The notes below the pieces were generated by a model that was not told the DNA's origin, searched no databases, and saw only the letters and a list, made by a program, of their open reading frames with translations. From assembly GCF_000143415.4 (NCBI RefSeq), contig NW_003314311.1, forward strand, positions 602,181 to 666,180: DNA of 64,000 nt, read 5' to 3'. The DNA comes from Selaginella moellendorffii. Its lineage: Eukaryota; Plantae; Lycopodiophyta. Position numbers and translations under genes: made by a program. Shown piece by piece: positions 511-62,876 of the stretch (its first letter is position 1; each line of letters starts with the position of its first letter).

Positions 511-1632
511 TGTTCCTTAGTCCGACTTTTATTGGTGCTCAAGTATATCACCACTAGTGTTGGCATCGGAAGGTCCGAGGAGTGGGCCTATCCTTGAGGA
601 GTAGCAAGTCGGGAAGACATGGCTCTCCATTACAGTTCATGTGTGAACTTGTAGACGAGGTGGTGGATAGAAAAGGGCCAATAATGGAACGACTTTGGGA
701 TCTTGGAAACAGTGCAAGGTTTTCCTCATTGAGTTGAGGATGTGATCCGGATGAGCATTTGTCTCAGCAAATTGGCTAAGGTTGTTGTGGTAAACAACTA
801 AAGTTGGGATCACGGGAAAGATAGAGACTCCAAAACAATAAAGGAGTCACAAGATTATCCTCATATAGTTGAGGTTGGTGCTCATGAATGTGAGACCAGA
901 GGTAATGACCGTGGGAGGTCAAATACGGAAGAGGACTCAAGTCCTTGAAATGGTAGCCGAGGCTACCTTTAATAAATGCTGGAACAACCCAAGGAGTTGG
1001 GGGTTGTACTTAGAGATGAGTGGTATTCTCATCGCATGGACAAGTAGTCCTAAGGAGCAAAAGTTGCCCCCAGAGAACAAAATCAAGTGTCGGAGTAACA
1101 CTTGTGAAAATAGTCCTTTTGAGTAGGACAGGAATGCAAGAAGTGTATTCCAGTGAGCTAGTGCCTCACAAGTAGGACCTTAAGGGTTTGTGGATTAACC
1201 AAGTCCAAAACTGCTGATGACTCAAGTAGAGTCAAGGGATGGTCCTAAAAGGACTGATGGAAGCATTTGGACTGAGGTGTGTTGTACCCCACAAAGGATG
1301 GGGGGGGGATCATAGGATCCAAGGATGAGAACAAAGGGTATCTCATCGATGGCAAAATGTGCCATGTTAAAGTTATGGGAAAGGTGTTCTCAGAAGAAAA
1401 CAACTTTGACACAAAGTTGTGTGTGACCTCTATGGTGCAGTGCTAACGGATGGTTGGCATGAGAAAGAGCGGTGTTGGTCTTAGCAAAAACATAAACACG
1501 AAGGGGAAGTGTCATAGAGGTAGGCTTGTGGAGCCGATGGTGTGGAGACACCAAATGTGCCAAGGTGTGATACCTTAAGGCTTTGTTGGTGGGTTCATGA
1601 GAACCCCTTGCCAAAGGAATCCCAATGGAAAT

Positions 1633-1656
1633 AAGCTCTATTTCGTTAAAGTGGGA
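1633..1656 (+). repeat. Left terminal inverted repeat (24 bp)
   Basis: Exact reverse complement of 15039-15062. Confidence 0.95.
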
Positions 1657-2063
1657 ATTGTCATTATCCCACTTGTAAAATAAGGTTTCCAAACCTTTAT
1701 ATAGTATATAAATATAACAAAATTCAACTGCATTGAGGCACATGCCATTTTATTTTAAACAAGGAAATGTCTACTCAATCACTTCTCACTGCTTCACCTC
1801 TCTCTTCTCCTTGTCATTGTCGTCCAATTTCTTTCCATCCTTTTAATATTGGCTCAGTTGCTCCGAGTCTAGGTGGAGCCCAAGTCCCCATTCAATCTTT
1901 ACTTTCCCCTTATTAATAAAACAACTTCGTAGACTTCCAATAACATGCTGTAACACTTCTAGTATAATGCAAATCCTCTCAAAGAATTGTCTTTTAATAT
2001 TAATACAATGGCATGGAACCCCATGCCATAATAAGTTACATTTTTAAATAAATACATGCCATC

Positions 2064-2926
2064 TCAGACTGTTATTTTTTGCCTCCAACGCCTATACAAT
2101 AATCTTGGAATTTCATCACTCTCCACACTATCAGGATTTAAACCCAATAGTAATGCCATCTCTTCTCTAATACGTCCACGCTCATGTTCAGTGGTCGAAG
2201 AACCCATCCGGTTGAGCAGATTATGGAGATGCGGATAGTGCTTGGCTAGACAATATACATGCCATAAATGATGACTGGTGTCTGTCCGATCAAATGGCTT
2301 CTGATATACCGTTCCATCTGCCATTTGGTTGATTTCTGCAGCCACCTCCTGGACTGGCCGGTTCTCTATCACCATCGCTTCAAGCCGTTTTGCAAGGTCC
2401 CCCAGAACATACGGTTTCTTCTCCCTAGTTTCCATACTGCAAGAGATGGGGTGCACTGCATATGTGTGCGTGTTCGCTGCAGTTTTAATCGGCGAGTCAT
2501 CGATGATGAGGATTTCACTTGACCTAGCAGTCCGGTTCAACACTACAGCCTCTGCCTTGATGAAGATGGGCTTGCTACCCCTCACATGGACCATAGTCAA
2601 GCAATCCTCCTGCGTTAGGAGAAAGTCAAATGGTAATATTACTCGCGTCTGATCGTGCATCATCTGTAGCAACGTTAATGCATTGTGGCGCATCATGGAT
2701 GTCCAAACTCCCAATTGCAAATTGAACCCGGCCCTCTGTTTTAAGTGTCGCATGGTCATTATTAGATCCCGCAATTTCTCCCGTGTGATTAATGTGAATC
2801 TATCTCTTTTGACCAACTTGCGACCGCAGGCTTTGGAGGGTGCAGTGACATTCGAGGACGAGCCACGCTCATGGGAGAAAAGGACACCGTTCAGATCAAA
2901 AACGATACAGTACTTTCGCCGTGACT
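2064..2926 (-). other. FCP1/SCP (NIF)-like HAD phosphatase domain (last exon)
   Basis: CIVFDLNGVL (HAD motif I, DxN variant), LGVWTS (motif II), ILIIDDSPIK (motif IV), typical of plant FCP1-homology-domain proteins. Confidence 0.75.
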
Positions 2927-5900
2927 CTGAAATGAAATGCGTAAGCATAAAAAATGGTACAAGTCAATTTTACCATCTACAATATTAGCGAATGGTGCTC
3001 CCGATGGTCGTTCAGAGGGTTTTGGTCGAGGAAACGTGAAGGGCGGAAATACTCTCCTCTGCAATGTGGGGTCAATCGCATCCGATGGCGTGTGGGCACA
3101 TGCCATTTCAGCTGTAGACTCTGGTACAACTGGCTCAACAGTGGCATGGGGTGGTTCCGATGGCGTGTGATCACACGCCATTTCAGCTGGTGCCTCCGTT
3201 GGCAAAGTGGACATGACCGAACAGGCAGCAGGGGCAGTGTAGGGAGGTTCCAACGGCGCGTAGTCAGACGATTGGGCACACGTTGGAAATGAGGATACGA
3301 CCGGCTCGGCGGCTGGGGCGGCCTCATGCGGGTCCAATGGCGCCTGGTCACCGTCAGTTGGATACGTGGACAAGATTGACTCAGTGGTATGGGCAGCATC
3401 AAGTGGAGTGTGGTCAGCTTGCTTGGCGTTGATATGGATAGTAACCTCCACCAGCTCTGATGACTCTTGCAGGCAAGTAGAGTCCACTGGCGGATCCATA
3501 TGCATGTCCAAATATCTCCCTTCGATTGAGATGGTATCCTCCCGTGCTACTAAAAACAAACTCATTAGCACATTGAATCGACTATACTGTATTTACCATC
3601 AACTGCTATTGAGGAACTAGGACCGATATCACTTGGGCGCACTGCTGATTCTGAAGGATTGGACATACGTTTCGACCCTTGCTTGGCACTATCCTTCCTC
3701 GACACTAAAGGCTAGAGTTTGTATCTTAATTCAACTGAATAATCTCTACTTACCATTTCTTCTGCGACCTACATGGACAATGTTAGAAATGGTAAAAGGT
3801 TAGGAATGGATGTACTATTATTTACCTGATGGTTTGTCTTGTATGACCTTCCTCCGCTGCTCTTTGGCCACCTCAGGCTGGCCATCATCGTCATCATCGT
3901 CATCGTCGTTATTGTGATCGTCACCATTGTGAGGACCATCCAAGTCCTCTTCGTCCTCCTCTTCTTCGTCCTCCTCTTCTTCGTCCTCCTCTTCGTCCTT
4001 CTGCTCTTCCTGCTCATTATCTTTCTCTGGCTCCTCATCCCCCTCTTGCATTTCTTCCATAGGCTGCTCAGGCTGGATTGCTTGTTTTTCCAGGACCATC
4101 TTGGAAAAATCATCTGGCCGAGTCTCCATCTCAAAATACAAGACATCCATAGCCTGTTTTAGTGCGTGACCTAGGGCCGTATCCTCACCCGACTGTCTTA
4201 ACATGGTTTCTGCACGTTCTTGCACCCTTCGAAGACGACGAGATGAGAAAAACGTGGCCCTGACTTGAAAAGCATCCCTCATCCATTGTACCTCTCCATT
4301 GAGATTGGGGAAGGGGAGTCCGCCATAGGAATCTGAGTCAGAAGGTGGTGACTGGCTCCTTTCACTCAGCCCTTGATCTGCAATGAATGGCATGAGCACA
4401 CACGCCATAACCGCAAGGCATTACCTATCATCTTTTCGTTGCCCTTCTTCCTTTTCGAATCAAACGCCTCTGATCCCGACGACTGTCCAACGTGCTTTCG
4501 CTTTTTATGACCACTGTCAGTTTGAGCTTGGCTGGTGCTTGCCTGTTTTGCCTTTGAAGAAGTGTCTCCTGCAAGGAATGGCATGAGACCACACGCCATT
4601 GCAAATATAATTTGTACCTCCTTTTTTCCTATTGCTTGTCTGTTTGTCCTTCTTCGACGCGCCACCAGTGCGCTTTTCAGTCCTCGTGTCTGAATATTCA
4701 CAACGATCTATAATCAAAATGGCGTGAGGCCTCACGTGACCTTACCTTGTGCAGGTTGTGACCTCGGCCTAACATCAGTAGCTGTTAACGCCGTTTCAGC
4801 ATCTGGGGGTGGCCACGCTCCTGCATACAGAGCTTGTGAGATAACATTTAAACTTAAAGTGCGTACTCACCAGGTTCGTAGAGAAGATACTGTTTTTCTT
4901 TGGCAACTGTAATTATATGCTCCATTGAAGTCACCTCTTCAATGGAGTTTGTCACCGCAACACACGGGACACCCTTGAGTAGTGCGGCTCGAAAGAATAG
5001 TCCGCCGCAGTTGTACTCGACAACGCATTTGCCCTTGGAGTCACCCGCTATTGCGTTGAAGACCCAGCTGAGCATTTCCCATGCTGCACCTGGAGCTTTC
5101 TTTGGATTCGAAAGCTCCATAGCCGTCTTCAGTTCCTCAGGCACGGGTAAATTGACCTCCCTCAGATCAATTCGATCGGCTTTGTTGAACGAAGCTGGGA
5201 AGTCACTCCAGTCCCACTCTGCTGCAGGACCAATAACAAGGGCGACTGTGAAGATGCGGACATTCGTCGGTATCTTCTTCTTAGCCATTATCCCATGGAT
5301 CTCCCGCATCTCCTTGCCTTTCAACCGAGCCTTCACCTCGTTCAAGGCCTTCCAGAACTTGTGATAGGATTCGGAGTCGTAGATCATATAGTGGACTGAA
5401 GATTCCACCTCCGCAAGTCCCACCATTAAGTCAATGATGGAGCTGACTTCGTCTGCATGAGTGATCTCCTCGTTTGTGAAGTCCATCACACAAAAGATGT
5501 TCTTGACCTGCTCATCTCCGCGGGAAACGATGCTCCTCCACCTTTGATCCTCATCCGAATTCACGTATACCCGGTAAGGTTCTCGATAGGCCTCTGCTGC
5601 GGGGTCGAGCTGTTTCTGAAGCCGGCGGTCGACATCCCTCTTAATGAAATTTGGATACTGATCCAACTTCTCAGCTTTACTTTTCGTGGCATCCCGCAGC
5701 AGATCGATGAACTTGGGGGCCCCCTTCACGTACTCGTCGATGTCTTCATTTGACAAGTCCAGCTCTTCCATCATCTCTTGCGTGGTGTCGATGCTCACCC
5801 TCGCCACGGCCACTTGCTCGAAGATCCAATCCTTCAATAGCGCACGAGCTCTCAGAGTCGTGCACAAGTCCTCGTATGTCACAATATGGCCGGGAGTCAT

Positions 5901-7654
5901 TTTGGTCTTGTTGAAGACTACCTCACCAAGTAGAAGAGCATTAGCCACTGTCAGAAGGTCGTCGTCGTCTAGAGACCGCGAGAAACGCAAGGCGTTGAGC
6001 TTCAAATCATTGGGCTTCCGGCCGTCCTCCACACCCATTGAGTTTAGCAACTCCCCGTCATGGTACCTCCTTAGCACATCTACCCATTTGTCAAAAACAA
6101 CTTTTGTCGCGAGTAGAATGTTATGGATGCTGAGTGTGTCATTGACCCCCAGTGTTTTCGAGAGAAGACTCGAGAATTCCTGCAATGGAAATGGCGTGAG
6201 GCCACATGCTATGCCACATGCAACGAGGCTTACCTGCCAGGCGCTAGTTGCTAGTGCACGTCCTTGTCCTGGTTTTTGTGGCTTCTTCAGTTGAACCCAG
6301 AGCTTCCGTGTTCGTGCCAATGTCTCGTGCAGACCCGATTTGTAGCACGTTTCTTGCTTGACATTCTGCGCGTGGGAGATGTATATGATAGATCGGAGGG
6401 GCGAGTTGCCTTTTATCAGGCGGACAACTCTTGTCTTGAAGACTTTCTTCACCTCCTCGCCCACCATAATATCCACAACTATCTGTTGCATCGCCAAGCT
6501 AGAATGCTGCCCGGAGACGGCATAGAACCGGATGTTCTGATCGTCCAACACCTTCCTATTGATCAAGTCTGGAAACCTCGTCTCGCCCTTCATTGTTCGG
6601 TAGTAGGGGATCACGTCTACGATGTCGGGTGTTACTGGACTTGCCAGCATCTTCTGCTTCAGTTTCTCCACCCACTCATCAGATACTAGCCTGTGGTTGT
6701 ATTTGCTTTGGATCTCGATACGGCTCACGTCGATTGTATATACTTTGTTGGAATAGTAACAAGTACTATTATCTGCGACGATTTTTGCTGCCTCTTCTTG
6801 CTCTTTCTGCTCTTTGCGGCTCTTCTTTTTGGTGGGTGTAGTGTTCGAACCCGAGGCAATGGCATCACCGAGTAGCTTCTTTTTTGGAGCAGCAGAGTCG
6901 GACGTCGGCTTGAGCTTGACCACCCTTTTCTGCTTCGGGGTAGTTTCCAGATCGACCCCCTTCCCCTTCGCTTCGCAAACTGGAGGCACTCTCAACGGCT
7001 CAATGTTGGAATATAGTTTTTGAACATCGCCGTAGGTGAGGTCCGTGGATTCCATGTGATCTTCATAGATCCGCAGCGTCTTTGAAATTGTGGGCCTCCT
7101 GGACAACCTCTCCCTAGCTCCCTCTAGGAATTCCTCATAGCCGCTGCCCCCCTCCGGGAAGCCGCTAGGATGTGCAAGGTGGATCTTGAAGGCGGACGCT
7201 GTCTCTACCACAAGTGCCAGTCCATATTCTTGCATGGAACTGCATGGAGTGTCTGTCACTTGGATGAGGATCCCCATGCATTCTTTTCTCCCACCATCTG
7301 TGTTGTACAGCATCAGATCCTCGCCTTCCATCCCGAAAGTCCAACTGGTGAGCTCCTCCCCCTTCTCTGCATCCACATTGACAGTGGCTGGAAGAAGAAC
7401 GCAATTCCTCGCCTGTTCAAAAATGCACAACAATTAGAGCTGACAGATGAAAAGCTAGCAGCTGGAAATAACGTGAGGCCACACGCCATTCACCACTGCA
7501 TCAGATGTCTTGAGGCTGCATCCTAAGATGGCGTGAGGCTACACGCCATCTGTAACCGGACTGCACTCGAGAGCCCAATCGGTGCATGCCAATGTTGCTA
7601 CTGAATGGCATGTGGCCTCATGCCATTTTCTACTTCGTCTAAAAGACTTACCAT
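2064..7654 (-). CDS. Spliced transposon accessory gene, ~1631 aa: ParB/Srx-like + degenerate DNA MTase-like + acidic/repeat linker + FCP1/SCP-like HAD phosphatase domain
   Basis: Proposed exons (minus strand): 7654-7652 (ATG), 7412-6234, 6179-4871, 4820-4746, 4689-4618, 4568-4425, 4377-3826, 3768-3754, 3704-3597, 3549-2974, 2926-2064. All introns are GT-AG. The joined length is 4896 nt with the frame kept at every junction, linking ORFs 4854..7433, 4517..4735, 4366..4701, 3818..4408, 2891..3571 and 2064..2948. The start codon and the 54-nt in-frame intron are the least certain parts. Confidence 0.75.
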
Positions 7655-8334
7655 TTGAAGCCGAATGGAGGCCGTGACAATCGAGGCCGGACTCGCTGGC
7701 GAATGTGCACTGTGTGTGCAGCGGATCGTAGCAGCAAGGCTACTCTGCCACTTACAGTTGGAGAGTGGTGCTGAAATCTCCCGGGACGCCAAGTGGGCTG
7801 CGTGTGGGTGGTGGAGTGGGCGGCGGAGTTGGCGGCGAAGTTACAAACTGGGTGTGTCTTGAAGTGGACGCCGATGCACACGAGCGCGATGCGAGCGCGA
7901 GTGTGATGCAAGCGCGAGTGGACGCCGATGCACACGAGAAACCTATAGAGAAGTGAGCGTGATCGCGAGTGGGAGCGCGATGCGAGCGGGAGCGCGAGTG
8001 TGATGCGAGCGCGAGTACAAAGCAAAATGCAAAACCTAACCTCACACGCGCGAAATGTCACAACGGTTGGTAATCCCGCCACGTCATCATTCCTCGGACT
8101 TGGGCGCCACCATTAATTTCTGGATTGCCGCGCGCATGCAAGCACGCAAAATCCAAAAGAAATCCGCAACGTCATCATTCCTCGGACTGCATGCACGCGA
8201 AATCCAAAAGAAAGATCATGATTGGGATATCATTTAATACCCTCGCTATATTTATACCATGCATGATTGGATATTCCAAAGCATCTTGTATTTCCAAAAA
8301 TGGCAGATGTTCAGCTAAATAAAGAAATTCTATC

Positions 8335-9720
8335 TGTTTCTATTTTTCTCTCAAATCAATATTATAGCATGTGGGCTCATGCAATTTTGAACCAAAGAAA
8401 CCCAAAAAACGTTGGACCCAAAATATTTTGAAAAAACCCAAAAAACCCTAAACATTTTAAACCCAAAAATCCAGGCGTCTATTCCTTGAATGGCGTGTGG
8501 GCGCATGCCATTTTCAGGGCCAAATGCTGAATGGAGAAAAATTCCCTTTCAGTGCAAATGCTGCAAGAGGCAGATGCCGAGCACAAAGGACTGTAACTAC
8601 CTCACATGACATAGATAAACTTTTCTCTATTTGGGAAAGATAAACTTTATAGCGTGTGGGCTCATGCAATTTTGAACCCAAAAAATGCACCAAAAAATTC
8701 TCGGCGTCATCTGGCGTTATCTCTTGAATGGCGTGGGGCCGCATGCCATTTTCAGGGGCACATAAGAGTATATTCCTAGGATATTCTGACACGCGCGAGA
8801 TTTTTTTGAGTTTTCTGGAGATCCAACCGTTAGATCGCAACTAGATTTTACAGAATGGTATACAATGTCTTTCTTGATGACCCTACAAAGAAGCATCTCA
8901 ATCGGACACCACATGAGACCACACGAGCCTTACAATGTTTCAGGGGCATTTGCCATAGATCCGACTGTTATTTTGCTCCAAGATTTTACAGTTTGGTGTG
9001 CATTGACCTTCCATCGAAACTGCAAAGGGACATCACAATCAGATGCGGGATCACAAGAAACTAACTTCACTAACTCTGGTTTCACCAAGATCTACGTAAG
9101 GAGTTATGAAATGAAAGGACCCTCTCTATTGAAATGTGTTTATGGTCCTAGGGGCATTGTGACATATCAAAGGATTTTGCATCAAGTTCTGTATTTGCAT
9201 GTTTATCAAGCTACTGAATTGCTAAACCCTAAACCCTAAACCCTAAACCCTAAACATGTGGCAAATGCTGTGTGAAGAAAGATGCCCTTTCTGGGCAAAT
9301 GCTGTAAGAGGCAGATGCCGAGCAGATGTATCTCAGGCTAGCGAAGGGGACGAACGAAAGCTAGCTATAAACATGACGGGATGCAAATAGATTACTAGGC
9401 TGGTCCTACGAAAATCAAAAACCATAATTGAAAACATTGAAAATGCAAAAAGAAAGGTTTATAATATTTTTGAATTTTAGGCAACCAAAGGAATGTAAGT
9501 AGGGCATGTGTTTGTAAGTTTAAAAATGCCTCAACCACTTAAATTCCCAAGTAAATAAAGCTGTTTCTATTTTTGGTACAGGTAAACTTTATAGCGTGTG
9601 GGCTCATGCAATTTTGAACCCAAAAATGCACCAAAAAATGCTCGACTAGCATTATTCTTTGAATGGCGTGTGGCCTTATGTCGAGCATTATTCTTTGAAT
9701 GGCGTGTGGCCTTATATTGC
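8335..9720. repeat. Three related direct-repeat units in the intergenic centre of the transposon
   Basis: Units at ~8335-8515, ~8620-8757 and ~9561-9720 share TTCTATTT...ATAGCRTGTGGGCTCATGCAATTTTGAACC...TTGAATGGCGTG. GCAAATGCTGYAAGAGGCAGATGCCGAGCA is repeated at ~8554 and ~9295. Confidence 0.8.
9222..9254 (+). repeat. Interstitial plant telomeric repeat (CCCTAAA)4+
   Basis: ctaaa-ccctaaa-ccctaaa-ccctaaa-ccctaaa. Confidence 0.9.
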
Positions 9721-10421
9721 CATAAATGGACGTACACACACAGCGTAATTATTCCTTTACACGGCGAATAATCTTGGCGCGGATCGCTGACATGGCATGG
9801 CAAAGTTCGAATCACTGACATGGCACAGCTGGATCGAGGCAAGGACATGATGTGACAAAGTTCAACCTCCGACAGCAAAGTCTAGAAGCTACTCAGTTTG
9901 AAATTTGTCAGAGGAATCATAAGATCTGGTTTGTCAGAGGATTTGATGTGACGTTCAAGCGTGTGTTATTTTTGAATTCTCGAACTCATTCCTAGGTCTA
10001 TCATTTTTGTGCGCCGTGTTCTTGGTTCCGCTGAGCGCAGTGAGCGCTGCTTGTGTAAGCGGCGTTGTGGGCTGTGGTTTATGCGTCTACGAGCGGTTGC
10101 GGCATTGCGAGCGCCATTGCGAGCGGCAGTTTATGCGAGTGGCAGTTTGTGCGAGCGGCGCTACGAGCAGTTGCGGTGTTGCGAGCGGCGCTATGAGTAG
10201 TTGCGGTGTTGCGAGCGGCACTGTCTTTGGTGTGGCTACCGCTTCCTCTTGATATTCGGCACTTGTGCTTCCTGGTATGTTCACCATGGAATGGCTTAGG
10301 ACCACATTTAGAAATGGCATGAGGCCACATGCCATCTTGGGCCCTTGCAATTTCATGGCTAGCGTATTGTCATGTATGTTTTTACTTGCCTGCAGCTGTG
10401 TGTATATCAAGATGGCATGAG

Positions 10422-10585
10422 CATGCCATCTTTGGCCCCTGCTAGCCTATTGCCATATTCCTTTTGCCTTGCTGCAATTGTATATATTTTTGTATGGGTG
10501 ACTAGTCACGCACACAAAAATATATACAGTTGCAGCAAGGCAAAAGGAATATAGCAACAGGCTAGCAGGGGCCAAAGATAGCGTG
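10422..10585. repeat. ~164-bp near-perfect loopless inverted repeat (fold-back) upstream of the transposase
   Basis: Arms of ~82 bp centred on GTGACT|AGTCAC (10503/10504), with about 7 mismatches, mostly transitions. Confidence 0.9.
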
Positions 10586-10787
10586 AGGCCTCATGCCATT
10601 AGTGGTACCACTAATGGCATGAGGGCTCATGCCAATTTTGTGAATGCGAAATTTCACGTGGGTGTCAATAGCATGTTTGAATAATGGCATGTGGCCTCAT
10701 GCTATTGAGGTTGTTTGGTATGTTATGATTTAGGCCATTCTCCAATCATTTTTTGTATGGTCTTAACTTCTTTTCTGCACTTTCAGA

Positions 10788-13700
10788 ATGGCCTTCAGGG
10801 TTGGGGAAAAGGTTTACATTTTGAATGGTGGGAAGAGAGTTGCAAAAGGGACCCTTGTGTCTATGGATCGGAACTTTGTTATACACTGTGAAAGGCTTGG
10901 GGAAGGCAATGCTGCTGTATCAGTAGAGACTGTCTTCGATGGGAATGTGGTTGCTATTGAACGAGGAGAGATGGTCGTCGGGGTAAATGTTGTTGTTGCC
11001 TTGAAAAATCTTCAGAAGAAAGCAGATGTTGGGGACAGCGCAAGTGCGACGCATGTTCCCTCCGTGGATCTTAAGAACCGTGCTACATGGATTCAGGCAA
11101 AAGTGTTTCTAAACAACCCCGAGGGGGAGGTGGTAGCTGAGGGCTTAGCCACAGTTGTCGATCCAAGAGATGCGGTTGCTAATCAAGAATTGGGCTGGGA
11201 TGATATTGGAGTTGCGATTTTAGAGGTTGTTGACACAGAAGAAAACAGTCTGACTATTGGAAGCATTGTGCGGTGGAAATTGAGGCACTTAGTGTTTGAG
11301 AATGTGAAGGATTCACAATCAAACACCACTACAACTAATGACAGAACATCTCTTCATGGGAAAAGAAAGTACACCTTCCTAAAGCGTGGCCAAAGGGATC
11401 TGAGCAACGAACCGAAAAGGCAGAAAATGGCGATGGAGGTTCGAATGGTCTCGACAGTTGCTTGTTGCAAGAGGAGGTGCTGTCAACATGCTGATTGGGA
11501 TGCTATTGAAGAGGAGAGAGCAAGATACAAGACATTGTCCTGGAAGGCAGCTCGCAATTTTGTGTATGAGGCATTACGGTCATCTGTTGATGCTTCAGAA
11601 CATCAGGTGGGGGGCATGGTCTTCCAGAGGGGTTTGGTCTGCATGAAGGCATGGAGAATCATTTATGGAGTCCCTCGAAGCACATTCTACAGAATCAAAA
11701 CTGAGTTCGAGGAACAAAGGGTTCAACAGGCAGTCCATGGGAACGACGGTACGCACAAAACCAGGGGTCATGTTGTATATGGAGAGGCAATCTTCAATAG
11801 GTTTGTCGAGACATGTAGCGAGCAGCAACCACATAAAACCCGCCTCTTGGAAGATGGAACACGAGACACCCAACGAGTTCTCCCTTCCATGTATACCAAG
11901 GGGGCCATATTGGAAGATGTGAATCGGGAACTCCAGAGTAATGGCTACAGGAAGCTGAGCCAATCTAGATTTAGTAGATTGTGGAGCAACAGGTTCAGGG
12001 ATGTGAGTATAGGAAAGTACTCCAGCTTTTCAAAGTGTGACGAGTGCACTGCTATCAAAATGGCTTTGTCGAAGAATTCTTGCAGCGCTCAAGAGCGAGA
12101 GACGTTGGTTAGAAGGCGGCTCGACCACAACATCGAGCAGAGAAGCTGCAGGACTGCATATTATCATAACAGGATTCTCTCCATGGAGAGACCTGACTCT
12201 TACCTCTGCATCATCCACGACAAAATGGACCAGAAAAAGACGTGCTTACCTCGACTCAATCCTGCCCCCAAGGCAATCTCTTCATCCATGCAGCTGCCTG
12301 TGTCTCTGTTTGGCATAATCGCTCATGGGCATGGTGCCCAGAACTATGGGAACTTCTTTGTACCTCTATGGGGTGGCGGGGGTGCAAACATGATGATTGC
12401 GTCCCTAGCAAAACACTTAAGGTCTCTGCAAAGTGCGCAGACTGAGCTGAACGGCCAACCCTTGCATAAGGCCCTTGTCGATCGAACCCCATACAGGGTT
12501 CAGCTGGAGGAGGAGCAAAGGCTTGCAGTATCGCGTGGGGCCCCATGCCATCCCAGTGAATATGTTGGCCGTCAGATTGTAGGGTTATCACGTGAGGCCT
12601 CATGCCATTCCGACGAGGCTAGTCGCCCGGTGAATGCACAGCCTCATCCAAACGAAGCAGAATCTCAAGGAAGTTCTTGCGGCCGATGTGGCCTTCCACC
12701 CCATCTTCTGCTCCAAACAGACAATGCTGGCAGTGAGAACAAAAACATGTACGTCTTCGCGTACTTGGCGATGCTTGTTGCCAAAGGCATATTTGAAACG
12801 GTTACACTTGGCTTTCTCATGGTTGGGCACACTCATGAAGACGTCGATGCCATGTTCAGTCACCTGGCAGAGTCCCTCCGGCGATCCAATGTCCTCACCC
12901 TCCCACAACTCTACGATGAATTCCAAAATTGCATCAAAGGCACTGTTGAAGCTGCACTTCTGACAGAGGTTCCAGACTTTAAGGGGTTTGTAAGAGGCTA
13001 CATCAGGGATGGATCCGAAACGCTGATTGGCCACTCCAAGCCTCTTCAGTTTCATTTCAGCATGTGTGACGGTGCTCCAGTGATGAGGTACAAGATGAGA
13101 GAATGGGACACAGTGTGGCTGCCAGTGGACGGCATTGAACTCTTCAAGAGAGATCCCATAACTGGGGAACCTATGATTCCTCAGGGTTCCCCACGGCCGA
13201 TGCACCCGGATGGACTCAAAGACCAGGAAAGTATAGTGGCCGGGATTAGACAGCATATTGCCTTCTGGAAGAGGGGGTTGGTGTTTGGTGGAGAATCCTA
13301 TTTTCAGAGGTGCAAGCCTTTGCTCGAATACTGGGAGAAGATTATATCTGCTATCCAAAATGGGCCGGTTGTATATGAAGAATTGGAAGAGTCCTTTTGG
13401 CCAGAACCCAGAGCACCAGATAGTAGCGGAACAATGTCCTCTGGAAATGCAGTGACAGATAACGATGTTGAGGATCACTATTGTGGGCCGAGGAACAAGA
13501 AGCCGGATTCAGCATTCAATCCAGTACAGGTCTGCAAAGGAATGGTCGTGCTTGTCAGACCCAGTAATAAAAAACAAATGATATGGGTGGGGCGCTGCAT
13601 CACTGATGCAGAGGAGGACGCGGAAACTTACTCCTTCAATGTAACTGTGGAGTGGTTCAAGCCAAGTTCCGGATATACGAAGGATTGCCTAGAAAAGAGA

Positions 13701-13856
13701 TGGGTGCTGAATCCAAGGGATCCCAGCATGAGCATATCGGTGGATAATGTTGTGCATGGTTGGATGCGGAAGCAGAGTGCCACCATCACCTTGCCAGACC
13801 ATGCAAGAGATGCAGCAAGAGCATTCATAACTCGAGTTCAAGGTGAGATTCATTAA
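10788..13856 (+). CDS. DDD-type transposase (Sola1-like), 1022 aa, intact
   Basis: Cys-rich CCKRRCC...VCMKAW..IYGV, HGN and FSKCDEC motifs. Candidate catalytic motifs IIHDKMDQKK, QTDNAGSENKN and FLMVGHTHEDVDAMFS. Lies inside the TIR/TSD-bounded element. The ATG is preceded by a TTTCAG acceptor-like site. Confidence 0.82.
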   Translation: MAFRVGEKVYILNGGKRVAKGTLVSMDRNFVIHCERLGEGNAAVSVETVFDGNVVAIERGEMVVGVNVVVALKNLQKKADVGDSASATHVPSVDLKNRATWIQAKVFLNNPEGEVVAEGLATVVDPRDAVANQELGWDDIGVAILEVVDTEENSLTIGSIVRWKLRHLVFENVKDSQSNTTTTNDRTSLHGKRKYTFLKRGQRDLSNEPKRQKMAMEVRMVSTVACCKRRCCQHADWDAIEEERARYKTLSWKAARNFVYEALRSSVDASEHQVGGMVFQRGLVCMKAWRIIYGVPRSTFYRIKTEFEEQRVQQAVHGNDGTHKTRGHVVYGEAIFNRFVETCSEQQPHKTRLLEDGTRDTQRVLPSMYTKGAILEDVNRELQSNGYRKLSQSRFSRLWSNRFRDVSIGKYSSFSKCDECTAIKMALSKNSCSAQERETLVRRRLDHNIEQRSCRTAYYHNRILSMERPDSYLCIIHDKMDQKKTCLPRLNPAPKAISSSMQLPVSLFGIIAHGHGAQNYGNFFVPLWGGGGANMMIASLAKHLRSLQSAQTELNGQPLHKALVDRTPYRVQLEEEQRLAVSRGAPCHPSEYVGRQIVGLSREASCHSDEASRPVNAQPHPNEAESQGSSCGRCGLPPHLLLQTDNAGSENKNMYVFAYLAMLVAKGIFETVTLGFLMVGHTHEDVDAMFSHLAESLRRSNVLTLPQLYDEFQNCIKGTVEAALLTEVPDFKGFVRGYIRDGSETLIGHSKPLQFHFSMCDGAPVMRYKMREWDTVWLPVDGIELFKRDPITGEPMIPQGSPRPMHPDGLKDQESIVAGIRQHIAFWKRGLVFGGESYFQRCKPLLEYWEKIISAIQNGPVVYEELEESFWPEPRAPDSSGTMSSGNAVTDNDVEDHYCGPRNKKPDSAFNPVQVCKGMVVLVRPSNKKQMIWVGRCITDAEEDAETYSFNVTVEWFKPSSGYTKDCLEKRWVLNPRDPSMSISVDNVVHGWMRKQSATITLPDHARDAARAFITRVQGEIH

Positions 13857-14144
13857 TATTCCTTTACAAAGTTTCTAATGTATTTTATTTCAAGGTGAAC
13901 AATCCGAATCTGAATCATAGGAGGCTTGATATAGTGTGTGAGGTAAAACAAAGATGATGTGACATATGCATTTACCAATCACACGTGCATAAATCTAATA
14001 ATATGGCGTGTGGCCCATATTAATGGCACATAAACCCATATTGTGGGCTTACGTGCTTTATGTACCATCATTCCCTTGCAGCGTGTGTGTTGGTTTCCTT
14101 TTATAACACAACAAACTCCATATTTTAGGGTGAAGAGCGTTCTC

Positions 14145-14402
14145 ATGGCAAGCACAAAATCTGTAAGTGAGGCAGAAAAGGAAACGGAGAAGGAGATAGG
14201 TGAAGATGTAGAATATATAAGTCTTCCAAACTCCCCGTACTATACTCCAGGTGATCATTTTTCTGAACAAACGGCAACATTAACAACTATCGAGAACGCC
14301 CCAGTAACGTCAGAGACAACAATCCAAAGCAAAACAACTGACCCGGAGAAGGATGATAGTACCGCTAAGAGTACCAAAAAGGAGGTGTCCACTAGCGCTT
14401 AG
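14145..14402 (+). CDS. Possible small acidic/Thr-rich ORF (85 aa) in the right arm of the transposon
   Basis: MASTKSVSEAEKETEKEIGEDVEY... from the ATG at 14145; no recognisable domain; flanked by palindrome copies at 14003 and 14410. Confidence 0.25.
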   Translation: MASTKSVSEAEKETEKEIGEDVEYISLPNSPYYTPGDHFSEQTATLTTIENAPVTSETTIQSKTTDPEKDDSTAKSTKKEVSTSA

Positions 14403-15038
14403 GCTTATAATGGCGTGTGCCCTCATGCCATTTACTTGATCACCAAATACCTTTTTCCCTTTGCACTAGTATATCTTAATACCGGTCTGAGAAATAGAAT
14501 GGCATGTGCCCTCAGGCCTTTTACTAAATCACCTTTGAAAGAAATGCAAGCCTCTATGTCGTAAAAAAAAGGTACTAGAGAAATTCCTTAATAATATGAA
14601 TGTTATTTAGTTTCATGAAAATACACTAAGGGTCAAATGAGTTAAATGACTTCTCCAGACTAGCAATGCCTCTTGCTACACCTTCACAATTAGATTCATT
14701 AGAAAAAGATAACATTGAATAATATCTAAATGTTCTCACCATTAAGTTATATGTCTGGCTAATAGGAATGATGTTCATCTTGGAAAGCTCACCACACGCT
14801 CAATGAACAAACAAATAGTGTGTGCGCGCATGCCATCGCTCTTCTTTAGCTTCAGATTCGGCTTGTTCACCTTGACAATGAGATTTATTATACAACTAGA
14901 TGGACTCAGTCTGGACATAAGGTCACCGCGCTAGTCACCATGCCCCAGATATGTCTAGCCCCTGGACAAAAAACATATAATTTCACGTCATTTTCAAATA
15001 CTTGAAAATTTGTACCTAGTCCCATTTTACTGAATAAA

Positions 15039-15062
15039 TCCCACTTTAACGAAATAGAGCTT
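15039..15062 (-). repeat. Right terminal inverted repeat (24 bp)
   Basis: TCCCACTTTAACGAAATAGAGCTT followed by TSD AAAT. Confidence 0.95.
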
Positions 15063-18025
15063 AAATGGGAATGGCATAGCCTAAGCTGCAGAGCATGCAG
15101 TTGGAGTGTGGTGACCCAGATAATGATGGAGGTGTGAAAGCACCAAACAATGAGTTGTAGGACTTGACAACTATGAGGCAACTAAGCAAGAGGTGCAAAA
15201 TAACTGGTTGAACGGGTAGAAGGTAGCTACCCAAAACTTCTTAATAGCATAGGGAAGTCAGATACACCCTTACGGGGGATAAGTTGCTTGTGTTGTGATA
15301 TAGTAAATCAATGTCATAAAAGGAAATACTCATTGTCAAGAAAGCCATCATTGGGACACCCGAACACTCTAGAACACCAGAAGGTGGTGTTTGATGTCGC
15401 GAGGGCAATGAATAAAGCCCAAGGGACTAAGTCCCTAGCGAATGATGGATAGAAGGTGCTATCCAAATGTCCAAGGTTGCGGAGACAGGAGAGGACTGTC
15501 TACCTGAGTTGGACAAAGCCAAGAATGGAATTTTGGCAAGGCTAGTGATGGGCATGTAAAGGCCCATAAGCAACAATGTAATCCCAGTGTGTGGGATTAT
15601 AAGGTGAGTATACCCGGATTGAGGAACCACTCCTTGGGCTATTGGGTAGGTACATCCCTAAGAATACTTGCTAAGGCATGATAGAAAGTGCAAAGCTATC
15701 CTCCTGGTCTGGAGGAGAATAACCAAAGGAAACATATGGGGCCAAAAGGCAAGTAGTATTGGGATGGAACTGAACCATAGAAATCGAAGGGCATAACCAA
15801 GGTTGGTTATGCCAGCTGGGAGTGGAGAATCAAGTGGGGGCTCGAGGGTGTTGCCGCTAGCAACCGTGATGCCATGGAGAGTCTAAAATATGGAATTGTC
15901 CATGTTAGACTATGTGGCAATTGGAAAGCTTGCAAAAAGGGAGGCCTTAGCAAGCTAAGGGACAGAGTTCCTTCAAGGTTCCCAAAGACGATTCTAGGTA
16001 GCTTAGTACCTAGAAAGGCCAAGTGTAAATGGTTCATAGAACGCGCGAAATCAGAGTGGCGCAGCAGAAGCGTGGTCTTGAAGCTTGCCATGAGGCAAGG
16101 CTGTCAAGGTTAGGGAAGTAGTTCCCGAGTGTTCAAAGAGAGGGCTTTGAACGAAAGTTGATGGTTAAGGACTTCCACGCTTATGCATGAACCATGTTAC
16201 GGTGGCCGGATGACTTGCTAAGTGAGATTGGCAAGTTGGGGGGAACAAATACCCTAGTTGAAGGTGCTAACTTCAAAACGGGTGGCCCATGGGGCCAAGC
16301 ATGGAGGAGCCCATGCATGATCACAGATATGTCAAGTGAGAGGACTTGGCAGTGTGGGGGAATTAGGTTCCTAAGCTGTGATCTGTAGCGCGCTTTAAAA
16401 ATAAGTTGGTGCACCGGCGTGGGGAGTCATGCCAGGCATCTTGTGTGATGCCGTCCGTAGATGCATATACGGAGGTTGGGTTCGAGTCCCGACCCTCTAG
16501 TGCTTGGGTTCGAGTCCCAAATCACTAGGGCGTGGTGATGGTTTGGAATATGAGGACACTCATATTTCGGTGGTCATGGACTCTCAGTGGGGAGACTGGT
16601 TTGGGCACACCGCCAAGCGAGGGATGCCTCGGAGTCGTGATGCACGGTTAGATTGCTTAGTGTGAAAGCTCGGCATATCTAACTTGAACGCTTTGGTGCA
16701 AGTGGCACCAAGGACGTGGTGAGTGAGATGGGGACACCTAATCTCAGTTGCTATGGACCCTTGGCCGGAAGGGCTGGCTTGGGCGCACCGCCAAGTGTGG
16801 GGGATGCCCCCGGGGTCGTAGTTAACAAGTTAAAGGTCTGGAAGACCTAGTACCTATTGGCAAACCTGTTAAGGTGCCGAGGTGAGATCACTAGGTGATT
16901 TTGTGGCTAAATAAAGACAAGGTCCTTGTTTGGGTTAAGGAATAAGGTTCCTAGTTCAAAGTGTTGATTTGAACTATTGATGATGGTGTGGCTTGGTCAA
17001 GGTGACCAAGTGGGAAAAGCACCTTAGGGAAGTGAGCTATGTCATTGCGATGGCATAGTGTGTCCAAGGAAAGTAGTCTCTAAAGAGACCCATGAGAGGG
17101 TCACAAAGTTGGGCCGAGGATAGAGCCCACAGCAGAAGATGCTAAAAGAGACTTACTAGGGGTGAACACCCTAGTCTTGGCAAAGCAGAGCCTTTGCTAT
17201 GGAATCAAAAGAACACCTCAAGGAGGGAGGTAGAGATTCGATGTTGCTTGGTGCAACAATCAATGGATAGGAGCAAAAGATGAGTGGCCAAGATAGGGCC
17301 GTGGAATTCCTTGGAAGGAATCCAAGTGACAAAGTTAGGCGAGGAACACTAATGTGTTGGACGCTAACAAATTGCGGGAAAGGAAGTGTGTTTCCAAGGA
17401 TGGATTCTGAATTGCTCCGATTTGGCGAAAGTGGAAGCTCCAAGGGAGGGAGCGGTAAGGTAGCCAAATGATAGGGCGATGGACAACCCTAGCACAAAGT
17501 GTGATAAATGGAACTTAGTGCCCAAGGTGGCACGAAATAGAAGAGAGGATGATGGTGCCCTCAAGTAATGAACTTCCTAGGATAGGGAAGTGGAGTTGCA
17601 CAATCTGTGCAATGCAAGGTGTTGGAGACACCTAGGAAATTGACTTCCAAAAGTCAAAAGAGTAAAAGTTCCAAGGTGCAAACATTCAATAGATGGAAAT
17701 TGAGACTACTCAAGAAGGAGTAGTGGGATTGACTTAGAGAAGGGTCTTTAAGAGGTTTAGCGAGAACTAAACCAATAAAAGGTGTGGTCCAATCAGTCTC
17801 TAAGTTGGAGAGACTACCCTCCTTAGAGGATAAGCAAGGCATGGTGAGCCTTTGGTGTCAAACCATTGAGGCATATGCAAAAGGCATGGTGAGCCTTCAA
17901 TGTCAAACCATTGACAAATATTGGCTAGGTGCCAAGGATGGAAATGGTAACACATGCGAGTGTTACTTTACAAAATGGTTTACCGTTCGATGAGGACATC
18001 GAACTTCGTCTATGGGTGGTGGAGT

Positions 18026-61328: not shown

Positions 61329-62876
61329 ATGGAGCTCCTCCAGCTAGTACTAGTAGGCTTACTTTCGCTCGTTCTCTACAAATTGGTGGGCATTCTTCTC
61401 TTTAAGAACAATGGCAGCAGACCCCCTTCCCCAGGATTTTGTGTTCCAATCTTGGGTCATTTGCCTCTCCTCGGCAATCTCCCTCACATCTCCCTTCTTA
61501 ATCTCTCCAGGAAGTTTGGAGGACTCATGCACCTCAAGCTCGGGCAAGTTGACACACTGGTCATCTCTTGCCCGGACGCCGCAAGAGAGCTTCTCAAGTT
61601 CCAAGACATCGCAACTTCTTCCAGGCCCGCGATCTCTTCCGCGAGATACTTTGGCTATGGAGGTGCCGGATTGGCCTGGGCGCCTTATGGGGAGCACTGG
61701 AGGAGCATCCGGAAGCTGTGCACTCTGGAGCTCCTCACGGCCAAGCGTGTCGAGTTCTTCCAGCCCATTCGCAAACAGGAGACCAGGATCTTCCTCCGCG
61801 AGCTTCTGGCGATGGCGGAGGAGGGCCGGGAGGTCGATTTGTCAACGATGATCAAGGATGTTACGTTCAACACCATCGCCAAGATGGTGATGAGCAAGAG
61901 CTACTCGGCCGGGAGCGCGACGAGCAAGGAAGAGATGGAGGAGGCCTTGTTCTTCAACCGGGCAATCACTCGCGCGTTTGAGCTCGGTGGTAGCATGCAC
62001 ATTGGTGATTTTGTTCCTTGGCTGGGATGGATGGACACGCAGGTTGCAAAGATCGAGGAAGTCCAGCACAGGATCGACCTGTTCTTGCAAAAGGAGATTG
62101 ACACTCATCGCAAGAACTTTGGTGGCCAGCCGAAGGACTTTATCGACTTGATGATGTCCACGGGGGAGTTGACGGACGCTTCGCTTAAGGCAGTTTCGCT
62201 GGTACGTTGTAGTAAAGCTGTATGAAAATCTTTCTATGGACGGGAAAGTTGACGTGAAACTTTGCTGTGTGTTTAAGGACATGATCGCGGCTGGAACGGA
62301 CACTTCGGCTGTTCTGATAGAGTGGGCGATGGCGGAGCTAATCAAGAACCCAGAATTCATGGACAAGGCTCGCAAGGAACTCAAGCAAGTGATTGGCGAT
62401 GGAAAGCTCATGGAAGACGAGGATATTTCCAGGCTCGAGTTCTTGCAAGCAATCGTCAAAGAGACTTTCCGGCTCCATCCGCCAGTTCCACTCTTGCTCC
62501 CTCATGAATCGATCGAGAGTTTTAGAGCTGGAGGATACACGTTCCCTGCCAGAACAAGGATCTTGATCAATGCCTACGCGATCGGGCGTGACAAATCCAC
62601 ATGGAGGGATGCATCCAGGTTTGATCCGGATAGATTTCTGGGGAGCTGTGTGGATGTCAAGGGCCAGCACTTTGAGCTCTTGCCATTTGGAGCCGGGAGG
62701 AGGGGTTGCCCGGGGATTCATCTCGGTTTGACCACCGTTTACTACATTCTGGGCAATTTGGTTCATGCGTTTGACTGGATATGTCCGAGGTGTTTGGTTT
62801 GACCGTGCCCAGGGCTTGTCCGCTCAAAGTTTTTCCGGTTGCAAGACCACCAACAAAAGCACTCAACATACATTAA
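61329..62876 (+). pseudogene. Cytochrome P450, CYP71 clan (A-type); C-terminus frameshifted by a small deletion, so probably a pseudogene or truncated allele
   Basis: N-terminal TM, PPSP hinge, WRSIR, phase-0 intron 62202-62277, AGTDTS, ETFR, DPDRF, heme motif FGAGRRGCPG. In-frame stop at 62802; the true tail LDMSEVFGLTVPRACPL... is in another frame ending at 62876. Confidence 0.85.

What the first reader, a model, noticed from the sequence alone, without database searches (positions are those of the whole stretch)
4378..6233. Tiny introns built around the palindrome, just upstream of the 3' splice site
Introns 4378-4424 (47 nt), 4569-4617 (49), 4690-4745 (56, alternative in-frame acceptor at 4708) and 6180-6233 (54) each hold one palindrome, and intron 7413-7651 holds three. 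On the sense strand they end ...CTCAYGCCATT-N(4-7)-YAG (using the 4708 acceptor for the third), so the motif fills nearly half the intron and its CTCAY could supply the branch point. Either introns serve as neutral slots for binding sites, or the motif helped create the introns, or the hairpin regulates splicing (all inference).
Basis: partly seen in the sequence, partly recalled or inferred. Interest (0 to 1): 0.75.

Follow-up and report, generated by a model that had tools for sequence, protein, structure and literature searches.

The report
Transposon palindromes double as branch points
A 13-kb plant jumping gene carries 25 copies of one palindrome, likely landing sites for its own helper protein, and in three predicted ~50-base introns half of the palindrome sits where the splicing branch point should be, so one short sequence likely serves both as a DNA site and as a splice signal.

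Summary
The introns belong to a predicted 1,637-aa accessory gene (ParB fold, methylase-like region, NIF phosphatase domain) of a 13.4-kb Sola1-type DNA transposon (1633-15062, AAAT target duplication). The element has 25 copies of ATGGCRTGWG-NN-CWCAYGCCAT, 21 of them non-coding. No spliced read was seen. The introns rest on reading frame, splice signals and, for 6180-6233, homologs that lack its 18 residues.

In three introns (6180-6233, 4569-4617, 4378-4424) the palindrome's CTCAY puts its A at -16 to -18. Four of five palindrome-free introns of the same gene have their branch motif in that slot. The fourth intron (4690/4708-4745) is doubtful. An RNA-hairpin role is not supported, as the arms do not covary. 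The motif probably did not create intron 6180-6233, whose position is shared with distant homologs; origin by a copied cassette stays open for the other two.

Best reading: DNA sites, likely bound by the ParB-fold protein, parked in introns and kept in the register that supplies the branch point. The element type is in print (Ectocarpus, Bostrychia; VANC analogy), and this scan found it in other genomes. I did not find the branch-point overlap reported.

The parts
1633..15062 (.). Sola1-type DNA transposon, 13,430 bp, inserted in a repeated (LTR-type) element
   Evidence: TIR pair and AAAT duplication; empty sites with a single AAAT at 45046, 51015 and 31012 and in DNA contigs
1633..1660 (+). 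left terminal inverted repeat; target duplication AAAT at 1629-1632
15035..15062 (-). right terminal inverted repeat; target duplication AAAT at 15063-15066
10787..13856 (+). transposase ORF (DUF7869), with two palindromes (12530, 12587) inside a variable coding insert
   Evidence: Pfam E 5.8e-42; 24 homologs
2064..7654 (-). predicted accessory gene, 11 exons, 1,637 aa: ParB fold, helical region, methylase-like region, acidic/low-complexity tail, NIF/HAD domain
   Evidence: open frame after removing ten introns; Atlas clusters of 813 and 1673 aa in Streptophyta
6234..6761 (-). ParB/sulfiredoxin-fold domain
   Evidence: model pLDDT 77.7; Foldseek Noc E 6e-4; VIA-align PadC Z 9.8, rmsd 2.8, 99 aligned
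2466..2912 (-). NIF (FCP1-like) phosphatase-type domain in the last exon
   Evidence: Pfam PF03031 E 4.8e-6
7413..7651 (-). intron I1, 239 nt, phase 0, three palindromes (7468, 7528, 7605); its own CTAAT at -22 lies outside them
6180..6233 (-). intron I2, 54 nt, phase 0, in frame without stop; palindrome 6191-6212; CTCAC A at -18
   Evidence: 18 residues absent in homologs
4821..4870 (-). intron I3, 50 nt, no palindrome; CTCAC A at -17 (control)
4690..4745 (-). intron I4, 56 nt (or 38 nt with the 4708 acceptor); degenerate palindrome 4719-4740; branch point more likely TTGAT at -25, outside the palindrome
4569..4617 (-). intron I5, 49 nt; palindrome 4578-4599; CTCAT A at -16
4378..4424 (-). 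intron I6, 47 nt; palindrome 4387-4408; CTCAT A at -16
3769..3825 (-). intron I7, 57 nt, no palindrome; CTAAC A at -15 (control)
3705..3753 (-). intron I8, 49 nt, no palindrome and no YTNAY (control that misses)
3550..3596 (-). intron I9, 47 nt, no palindrome; CTAAT A at -16 (control)
2927..2973 (-). intron I10, 47 nt, no palindrome; CTTAC A at -16 (control)
3085..3181 (.). two perfect palindromes (3085, 3160) inside a coding exon, read as AEMACxHTPS
8364..10705 (.). ten palindromes between the two divergent genes (8364, 8490, 8649, 8728, 9591, 9663, 10314, 10578, 10614, 10684)
14410..14836 (.). three palindromes near the right end (14410, 14499, 14815)
2008..2029 (.). palindrome just downstream of the accessory gene stop, near the left end

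Best explanation
A 13.4-kb Sola1-type transposon carries 25 copies of a 22-bp palindrome that likely act as DNA binding sites for its own ParB-fold accessory protein, and in three predicted ~50-nt introns the palindrome's CTCAY half likely doubles as the splicing branch point. Shown: the element, its ends, the motif, its non-coding bias, the ParB fold, and the position of CTCAY. Inferred: splicing; that the protein binds the motif as a dimer, as ParB binds parS; that binding controls the element's own expression or silencing; and the order of events. In that order the element needs sites along its length, introns are the cheapest slots inside a 5.6-kb coding gene, and a copy that lands on the 3' part of a tiny intron survives only in the orientation and register in which CTCAY replaces the old branch point.
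For: 21 of 25 copies are non-coding although 59% of the element is coding (P 1e-5); 7 lie in 677 nt of introns against 14 in 4,783 nt of other non-coding DNA (P 0.011). The motif behaves like a two-half DNA site: half-site columns up to 50 of 50 invariant, no covariation of the R/Y pair (Fisher P 1.0), the W-W pair complementary in 8 of 25. Four copies lie in coding DNA and 14 outside any intron of the gene, where no branch point is needed. Branch slot: CTNAY with A at -15 to -18 in 4 of 5 palindrome-free introns against 15 of 175 GT..YAG pairs of that size in the element (P 2.5e-4); the three palindrome introns match that slot (joint register probability 0.008) and all read CTC on the sense strand (3 of 3 against 6 of 21, P 0.04). 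I2 is absent as protein in 3 of 10 homologs that span it, 5 end at that spot and 2 start just after it. Retaining I4, I5 or I6 stops the frame at codon 860, 919 or 953 of 1,638. ParB fold. Precedents: ParB+methylase gene opposite the transposase in Sola1-1_Ec32; inverted-repeat arrays beside a ParB gene in Plavaka elements; VANC21 bound in introns.
Against: No spliced read or lariat was seen; two contig sets run unspliced through predicted introns. CTCAY departs from the strict CTRAY consensus (recalled), and I chose the relaxed CTNAY pattern after seeing the sequences. The fourth short intron (I4) does not fit well. The statistics rest on three introns that may be copies of one block, so they are not independent; with the I4 copy counted among the others the orientation P is 0.052. 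There is just enough room in I2, I5 and I4 to hold the palindrome beside a separate branch point, so overlap is not forced by size. Even spacing of sites is only weakly supported (P 0.03-0.09). No binding was tested. The methylase-like region had no confident model or family hit and rests on Atlas leads under 0.8 and motifs read by eye. ParB's arginine-rich CTP motif (recalled) is replaced by GQH.
Confidence: 0.55

Rival explanations
1. Splicing switch: the hairpin in the pre-mRNA, or the accessory protein bound at it, hides the branch point of I5 and I6, so retention gives a short ParB/methylase-like protein and splicing gives the long form with the phosphatase domain (autoregulation).
For: The branch A is predicted paired in I5 and I6 (unpaired probability 0.01 and 0.00). 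Both hairpins are more stable on the sense strand (-12.0 and -11.0 against -8.1 and -7.0 kcal/mol). Retention truncates just after the methylase-like region. The Atlas holds a short (813 aa) and a long (1673 aa) cluster.
Against: No covariation of the arms across 25 copies. The branch A is predicted unpaired in I2 (0.96) and paired in palindrome-free I3 (0.00). In I2 and I4 the 5' arm has decayed while the 3' half is perfect. Most copies lie far from any 3' splice site. The two Atlas lengths may be gene-calling differences.
Confidence: 0.12
2. Intron creation: a block made of the palindrome plus a TTGCAG acceptor was copied into low-complexity coding sequence and recruited an upstream GT, creating I5 and I6.
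For: I5 and I6 match at 28 of their last 31 nt. The 3' tails of I2, I5 and I6 agree at 5-6 of 7 positions against a mean of 3.2 for the other 33 pairs. Their 5' parts are unrelated (P 0.11-0.58). No homolog covers this part of the protein.
Against: The position of I2 is shared with homologs at 20-32% identity, and their read-through peptides show no footprint of this motif. Five equally small introns have no motif, and I3-I10 are all phase 1 with or without it. There is no consistent flanking duplication beyond AG|G. Conversion of an existing intron's 3' end explains the same similarity.
Confidence: 0.15
3. The palindrome is a DNA site, but for the transposase or a host transcription factor, not for the ParB-fold protein.
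For: Transposases can be sequence-specific regulators (abstract of 10.64898/2026.08.24.746577). Copies lie near both ends. Some copies contain TGGGCY or GTGGGGCCC cores that resemble plant TCP sites (recalled, not tested).
Against: The motif is absent from the terminal inverted repeats and nearly absent from the other 50 kb of the window. A long dyad suits a dimeric ParB-type protein, and the same pairing is proposed in red algae.
Confidence: 0.15
4. The segments are not real introns, or the gene is silent and decaying, and the branch-point match is coincidence.
For: No spliced joint in four laid runs. This copy shows C-to-T type differences, 17 of 25 in CG or CHG context.
Against: A single 1,637-aa frame opens only with these splices. 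Homologs lack the I2 residues. Eight of nine short introns have a CTNAY in a 4-nt slot with the 4708 acceptor, seven of nine without it.
Confidence: 0.05

Closest known systems
Sola1-1_Ec32 of Ectocarpus (PMC12477816; passages read; supplements not read)
   Same: Giant Sola1 element with an accessory gene on the strand opposite the transposase, encoding a ParB-like domain plus an N4C/N6A methylase domain, proposed to bind and modify its own element.
   Different: Brown alga, 21.5 kb, 1104 aa. The main text has no occurrence of 'palindrom' and describes no intron overlap. The protein here adds a NIF/HAD domain and its methylase motifs look degenerate (by eye).
Plavaka elements of Bostrychia, gene PAG3 (bioRxiv 10.1101/2025.02.11.637652; passages read)
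   Same: Transposon accessory protein with a ParB-like domain, and inverted repeats in the element proposed as its binding sites.
   Different: EnSpm/Plavaka superfamily. The repeats form tandem arrays adjacent to the gene, not dispersed copies inside tiny introns. The second domain is a 2OG oxygenase.
VANDAL/VANC anti-silencing system of Arabidopsis (PMC5735166 and PMC10398659; passages read)
   Same: Transposon-encoded protein binds a family-specific motif concentrated in non-coding parts of its own element, introns included.
   Different: Mutator-like element (recalled), unrelated protein, a 9-bp non-palindromic motif in tandem repeats, large non-coding regions. No splice-signal overlap in the passages seen. 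Anti-silencing is shown there and untested here.
Spm TnpA (bioRxiv 10.64898/2026.08.24.746577; abstract and section 4 read)
   Same: Accessory factor binding clustered family-specific motifs and activating its own element.
   Different: Motifs are terminal, the protein derives from a transposase, and internal methylation is largely unchanged.
Bacterial ParB/parS and Noc/NBS (fold match; mechanism recalled)
   Same: ParB/Srx fold and dispersed palindromic sites.
   Different: No ParA. The CTP motif is altered. The DNA-binding helix-turn-helix was not identified in the model.
Introner elements (recalled; search listing only)
   Same: Repeated sequence inside several short introns with an inverted repeat.
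   Different: The whole introns are not alike, there is no consistent target duplication, and most copies of the motif lie outside introns.

Membership tests
Sola1 DNA transposons | 4-bp AWWT target-site duplication | tested here: met
   AAAT on both sides; single AAAT at three empty sites in the window; hallmark as stated in PMC3845634
Sola1 DNA transposons | Terminal inverted repeats | tested here: met
   25 of the first 28 nt match, the first 24 exactly
Sola1 DNA transposons | Sola-type DDD transposase, grouping with named Sola1 proteins in a tree | tested here: inconclusive
   DUF7869 hit and acidic motifs present; no named Sola1 protein among the 24 homologs; no tree built
ParB-methylase transposon accessory proteins (Sola1-1_Ec32 type) | ParB-like domain | tested here: met
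ParB-methylase transposon accessory proteins (Sola1-1_Ec32 type) | N4C/N6A methylase domain with catalytic motifs | tested here: inconclusive
   Atlas leads 0.75-0.79 to ParB + N6_N4_Mtase clusters; no Pfam hit; low-confidence model; DF in place of DPPY by eye
ParB-methylase transposon accessory proteins (Sola1-1_Ec32 type) | Gene on the strand opposite the transposase, inside the element | tested here: met
VANC-like sequence-specific anti-silencing system (works like) | Family-specific motif enriched in non-coding parts of the element | tested here: met
   21 of 25 non-coding; 2 weak copies outside
VANC-like sequence-specific anti-silencing system (works like) | Element-encoded protein binds the motif and removes silencing marks | not testable with these tools
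   needs ChIP/EMSA and methylomes
U2 spliceosomal introns | GT-AG ends, branch motif near the 3' end, removal restores the frame | tested here: met
   I8 lacks a branch motif; the I4 acceptor is ambiguous
U2 spliceosomal introns | Seen removed in RNA | tested here: inconclusive
   the two raw RNA runs had depth in 4 and 2 of 30 bins, none over the short introns
Introner elements | Whole-intron similarity among copies | tested here: not met
   5' parts unrelated; similarity limited to the palindrome and 3' tail
Introner elements | Target-site duplication supplying a splice site | tested here: not met
   flanking repeats of 1-5 nt, matching the AG|G consensus, also at motif-free introns

The most novel reading that the evidence does not exclude
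The transposon's ParB-fold protein controls its own isoforms: sitting on palindromes that are also the branch points of its own tiny introns (on DNA during transcription, or on the RNA hairpin), it shifts splicing between a short DNA-binding form and a long form carrying a phosphatase-like domain. A single 22-mer would be protein-loading site, branch point and feedback switch, and the palindrome-plus-acceptor block may have founded two new introns.
Probability: 0.12. Interest if true: 0.85.

Novelty: new variant of a known kind. Interest (0 to 1): 0.48.

Why it matters
ParB-bearing transposon accessory genes have been proposed in algae to bind their own elements, but in the passages read no binding site was tested. 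This element gives a sharp 22-bp candidate site in 25 copies, so the idea can be tested directly by EMSA or ChIP. The three tiny introns show how a cis site can enter a compact gene at no coding cost by taking over a splice signal. That is a clean case of one sequence under both a DNA-level and an RNA-level constraint, and the two halves can be mutated separately. If the feedback version held, it would link transposon self-recognition to splicing control.

Tried and rejected
RNA evidence: no RNA holder was listed. Laying two raw RNA runs and two contig sets on 1600-9150 gave no spliced joint, and the raw runs had no depth over the short introns. This is no evidence for or against expression.

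DNA of related elements, needed for intron presence/absence: none obtained. No own genome is held. Metagenome scans with the accessory protein and viral scans with the transposase alignment and the palindrome found nothing. The GTDB collection was not scanned.

Protein searches: the word-index search with the accessory ORF found 0 of 7,994 candidates. Of 11 representative hits I dropped two as spurious (P0029, RTX-type repeats; P0032, repetitive). The 630-residue model was poor (pLDDT 54) and gave no meaningful fold match. PDB sequence, PHROGs and NCBIfam searches gave nothing.

Other tests: conservation of the palindromes across copies was uninformative (0 of 40 shown variant rows in palindromes, 1.6 expected, 7 rows not shown). 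Geometric necessity of the overlap was rejected except for I6. Whole-intron paralogy was rejected. The resemblance of motif-free I10 to the 3' ends of I2 and I6 (P 0.007 uncorrected among 45 pairs) is kept as a lead only. Rfam hits were low-score hairpin matches. The first palindrome scan used a wrong spacer and the first I9 coordinates were off by two (corrected). One host intron (P450, 62202-62277, 76 nt, TTGAC near -26) is too little for a host baseline. Bao et al. 2009 was not held. PMC5750206 has no occurrence of 'intron'. PMC4738411 passages did not describe this protein.
Full report
Context. The finding lies inside a DNA transposon at 1633-15062. Its ends are inverted repeats flanked by AAAT on both sides. 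Three other copies of the surrounding repeat in the window carry a single AAAT at that spot, as do contigs of a DNA run, so AAAT is a true target duplication. An AWWT duplication is given as the hallmark of Sola1 in PMC3845634 (passages), and PMC9033089 lists Sola1 in a moss (table passage). The plus strand encodes a DUF7869 transposase (24 homologs). The host is a land plant by the Atlas clusters (Streptophyta). Earlier notes on this genome call it a spikemoss; I did not test that. PMC6157073 says the Selaginella intron length distribution differs sharply from other land plants and clusters with fungi (passage). The family is young and repeated: 99 of 171 contigs laid from one DNA run are at least 99% alike.

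The gene. On the minus strand a frame from ATG 7654 to TGA 2064 is open for 1,637 residues once ten GT-AG segments are removed. Five more of 47-57 nt (I3, I7-I10) have no palindrome. Retaining I3, I4, I5 or I6 stops the frame at codon 836, 860, 919 or 953; I2 is in frame. For I2 there is outside support. Among ten homologs at 20-32% identity (nine of the eleven hits plus P0039), three span the site without the 18 residues (P0034 and P0039 with an 18-residue gap, P0028 with 16), five end there with a peptide that fits a read-through donor (KV-stop twice, QVN, QVC, VVS), and two begin just after it. No RNA support was obtained: no spliced joint in four runs, no raw-read depth over the short introns, and the contigs of X1 and X3 cross I1 and I10 unspliced, as DNA would.

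The protein. Residues encoded by 6234-6761 fold with pLDDT 77.7 and match ParB-family structures: Noc E 6e-4; PadC Z 9.8, KorB 9.1. The last exon has a NIF phosphatase-type domain. The middle region resembles phage ParB plus N6/N4 methylase proteins only as an Atlas lead under 0.8. By eye its catalytic and SAM motifs look degenerate, and the larger model was too poor to test this.

The motif. ATGGCRTGWG-NN-CWCAYGCCAT occurs 25 times in the element, against 0-1 in shuffles and 2 weak copies in the remaining 50 kb. Four copies are coding, 7 intronic and 14 in other non-coding DNA. Coding depletion has P 1e-5 and intron enrichment over other non-coding DNA P 0.011. The halves vary independently: R and Y show no covariation (P 1.0) and the W-W pair is complementary in 8 of 25. 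This is the pattern of a dyad DNA site read by a dimer, not of a selected RNA stem. No gap between sites exceeds 1,846 nt, which is only weakly tighter than random placement (P 0.03-0.09).

The branch-point question. Four of five palindrome-free short introns have CTNAY with the A at -15 to -17; 15 of 175 GT..YAG pairs of 38-57 nt in the element do so (P 2.5e-4). In I2, I5 and I6 the palindrome's CTCAY has its A at -18, -16 and -16, 32-37 nt from the donor, and it is the only YTNAY beyond -8. The joint chance of that register is 0.008, and all three read CTC on the sense strand, against 6 of 21 other copies (P 0.04; 0.052 if the I4 copy is counted among the others). Caveats: the pattern was relaxed from CTRAY after inspection, and the three introns share their 3' tails and may descend from one block. 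I4 does not fit. With the 4708 acceptor its CTCAC is only 21 nt from the donor; with 4690 a TTGAT lies at the usual 32 nt, outside a degenerate palindrome. In I1 the branch motif (CTAAT, -22) is separate from the three palindromes. So dual use is likely in three introns, doubtful in one and absent in the long one.

Hairpin regulation. The branch A is predicted paired in I5 and I6, and those hairpins are stronger on the sense strand. But it is unpaired in I2 and paired in motif-free I3. In I2 and I4 the 5' arm has decayed while the 3' half is perfect. I give regulation 0.12. It stays attractive because retention would remove the tail and phosphatase domain and the Atlas has both a short and a long cluster, though that may reflect gene calling.

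Intron creation. The position of I2 is shared with distant homologs. The visible read-through of three of them (about 14, 25 and 27 codons) has no peptide footprint of this motif; among 39 proteins scanned it appeared only in this element's two ORFs, a 97% identical transposase copy and one probable chance hit. So the motif probably entered an older intron there. I5 and I6 lie in a tail with no homologs, match at 28 of their last 31 nt and have unrelated 5' parts. A copied palindrome-plus-acceptor block could have converted old introns or made new ones; I give creation 0.15. They fail the introner tests of whole-intron likeness and target duplication.

Comparison and novelty. A giant Sola1 with a ParB plus methylase gene opposite the transposase is described in Ectocarpus (PMC12477816, passages). 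ParB accessory genes beside inverted-repeat arrays are described in red algae (10.1101/2025.02.11.637652, passages). VANC21 binds motifs in introns and other non-coding parts of its element (PMC5735166, passages; PMC10398659, passages). TnpA binds terminal motif clusters (10.64898/2026.08.24.746577, abstract and section 4). Four earlier notes of this scan report the same element type with palindromes in other genomes; they are unchecked and not counted as support. I found no report of such a site serving as a branch point: paper searches, and the scan's notes. The library lacks most subscription papers, and I read no supplements.

Verdict. The feature is real. It is a variant of a known kind of system, with one neat and testable twist that is inferred from sequence alone. 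Interest 0.48.

Noticed in passing
window 7718-7756: A 39-40 nt stretch about 65 nt upstream of the accessory ATG matches an abundant RNA whose flanks continue as other sequence (about 170 and 105 reads). Rfam gives a weak match to positions 3338-3373 of eukaryotic large-subunit rRNA, rRNA sense on the gene's strand (12 bits, E 0.42). It looks like a captured rRNA piece in the 5' leader; function unknown.
   Followed up: partly
window 2927-4870: Eight consecutive predicted introns (I3-I10) are all phase 1, so the seven exons between them are multiples of three and could be skipped or duplicated in frame.
   Followed up: partly
window 10422-10585: A 164-bp fold-back (82-nt arms, 91% complementary, no loop) inside a putative 512-nt leader intron of the transposase (10275-10786) that also holds four palindromes; a possible small-RNA source.
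   Followed up: no
window 12530-12608: Two palindromes are written into the transposase coding sequence within a region that is variable among homologs; a 97% identical copy (P0004) keeps both peptides.
   Followed up: partly
window 13843-13894 and 14034-14402: A possible 52-nt intron near the transposase end with CTAAT at -17, followed by a small plus-strand ORF with no Pfam hit.
   Followed up: partly
window 1600-9150: Against other copies, this copy mostly has T/A where they have C/G; 17 of 25 listed transitions are in CG or CHG context, as expected of a methylated copy. CpG o/e is 0.71 in the element against 0.47 in the rest of the window.
   Followed up: partly
window 61329-62802: Host cytochrome P450 gene with one predicted 76-nt intron at 62202-62277.
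   Followed up: partly
window 8322-8399, 8607-8684, 9549-9626: Three copies of a 78-nt unit, each ending in a variant palindrome (ATAGC..GCAAT), in the region between the two genes; one DNA contig skips 529 nt there.
   Followed up: no
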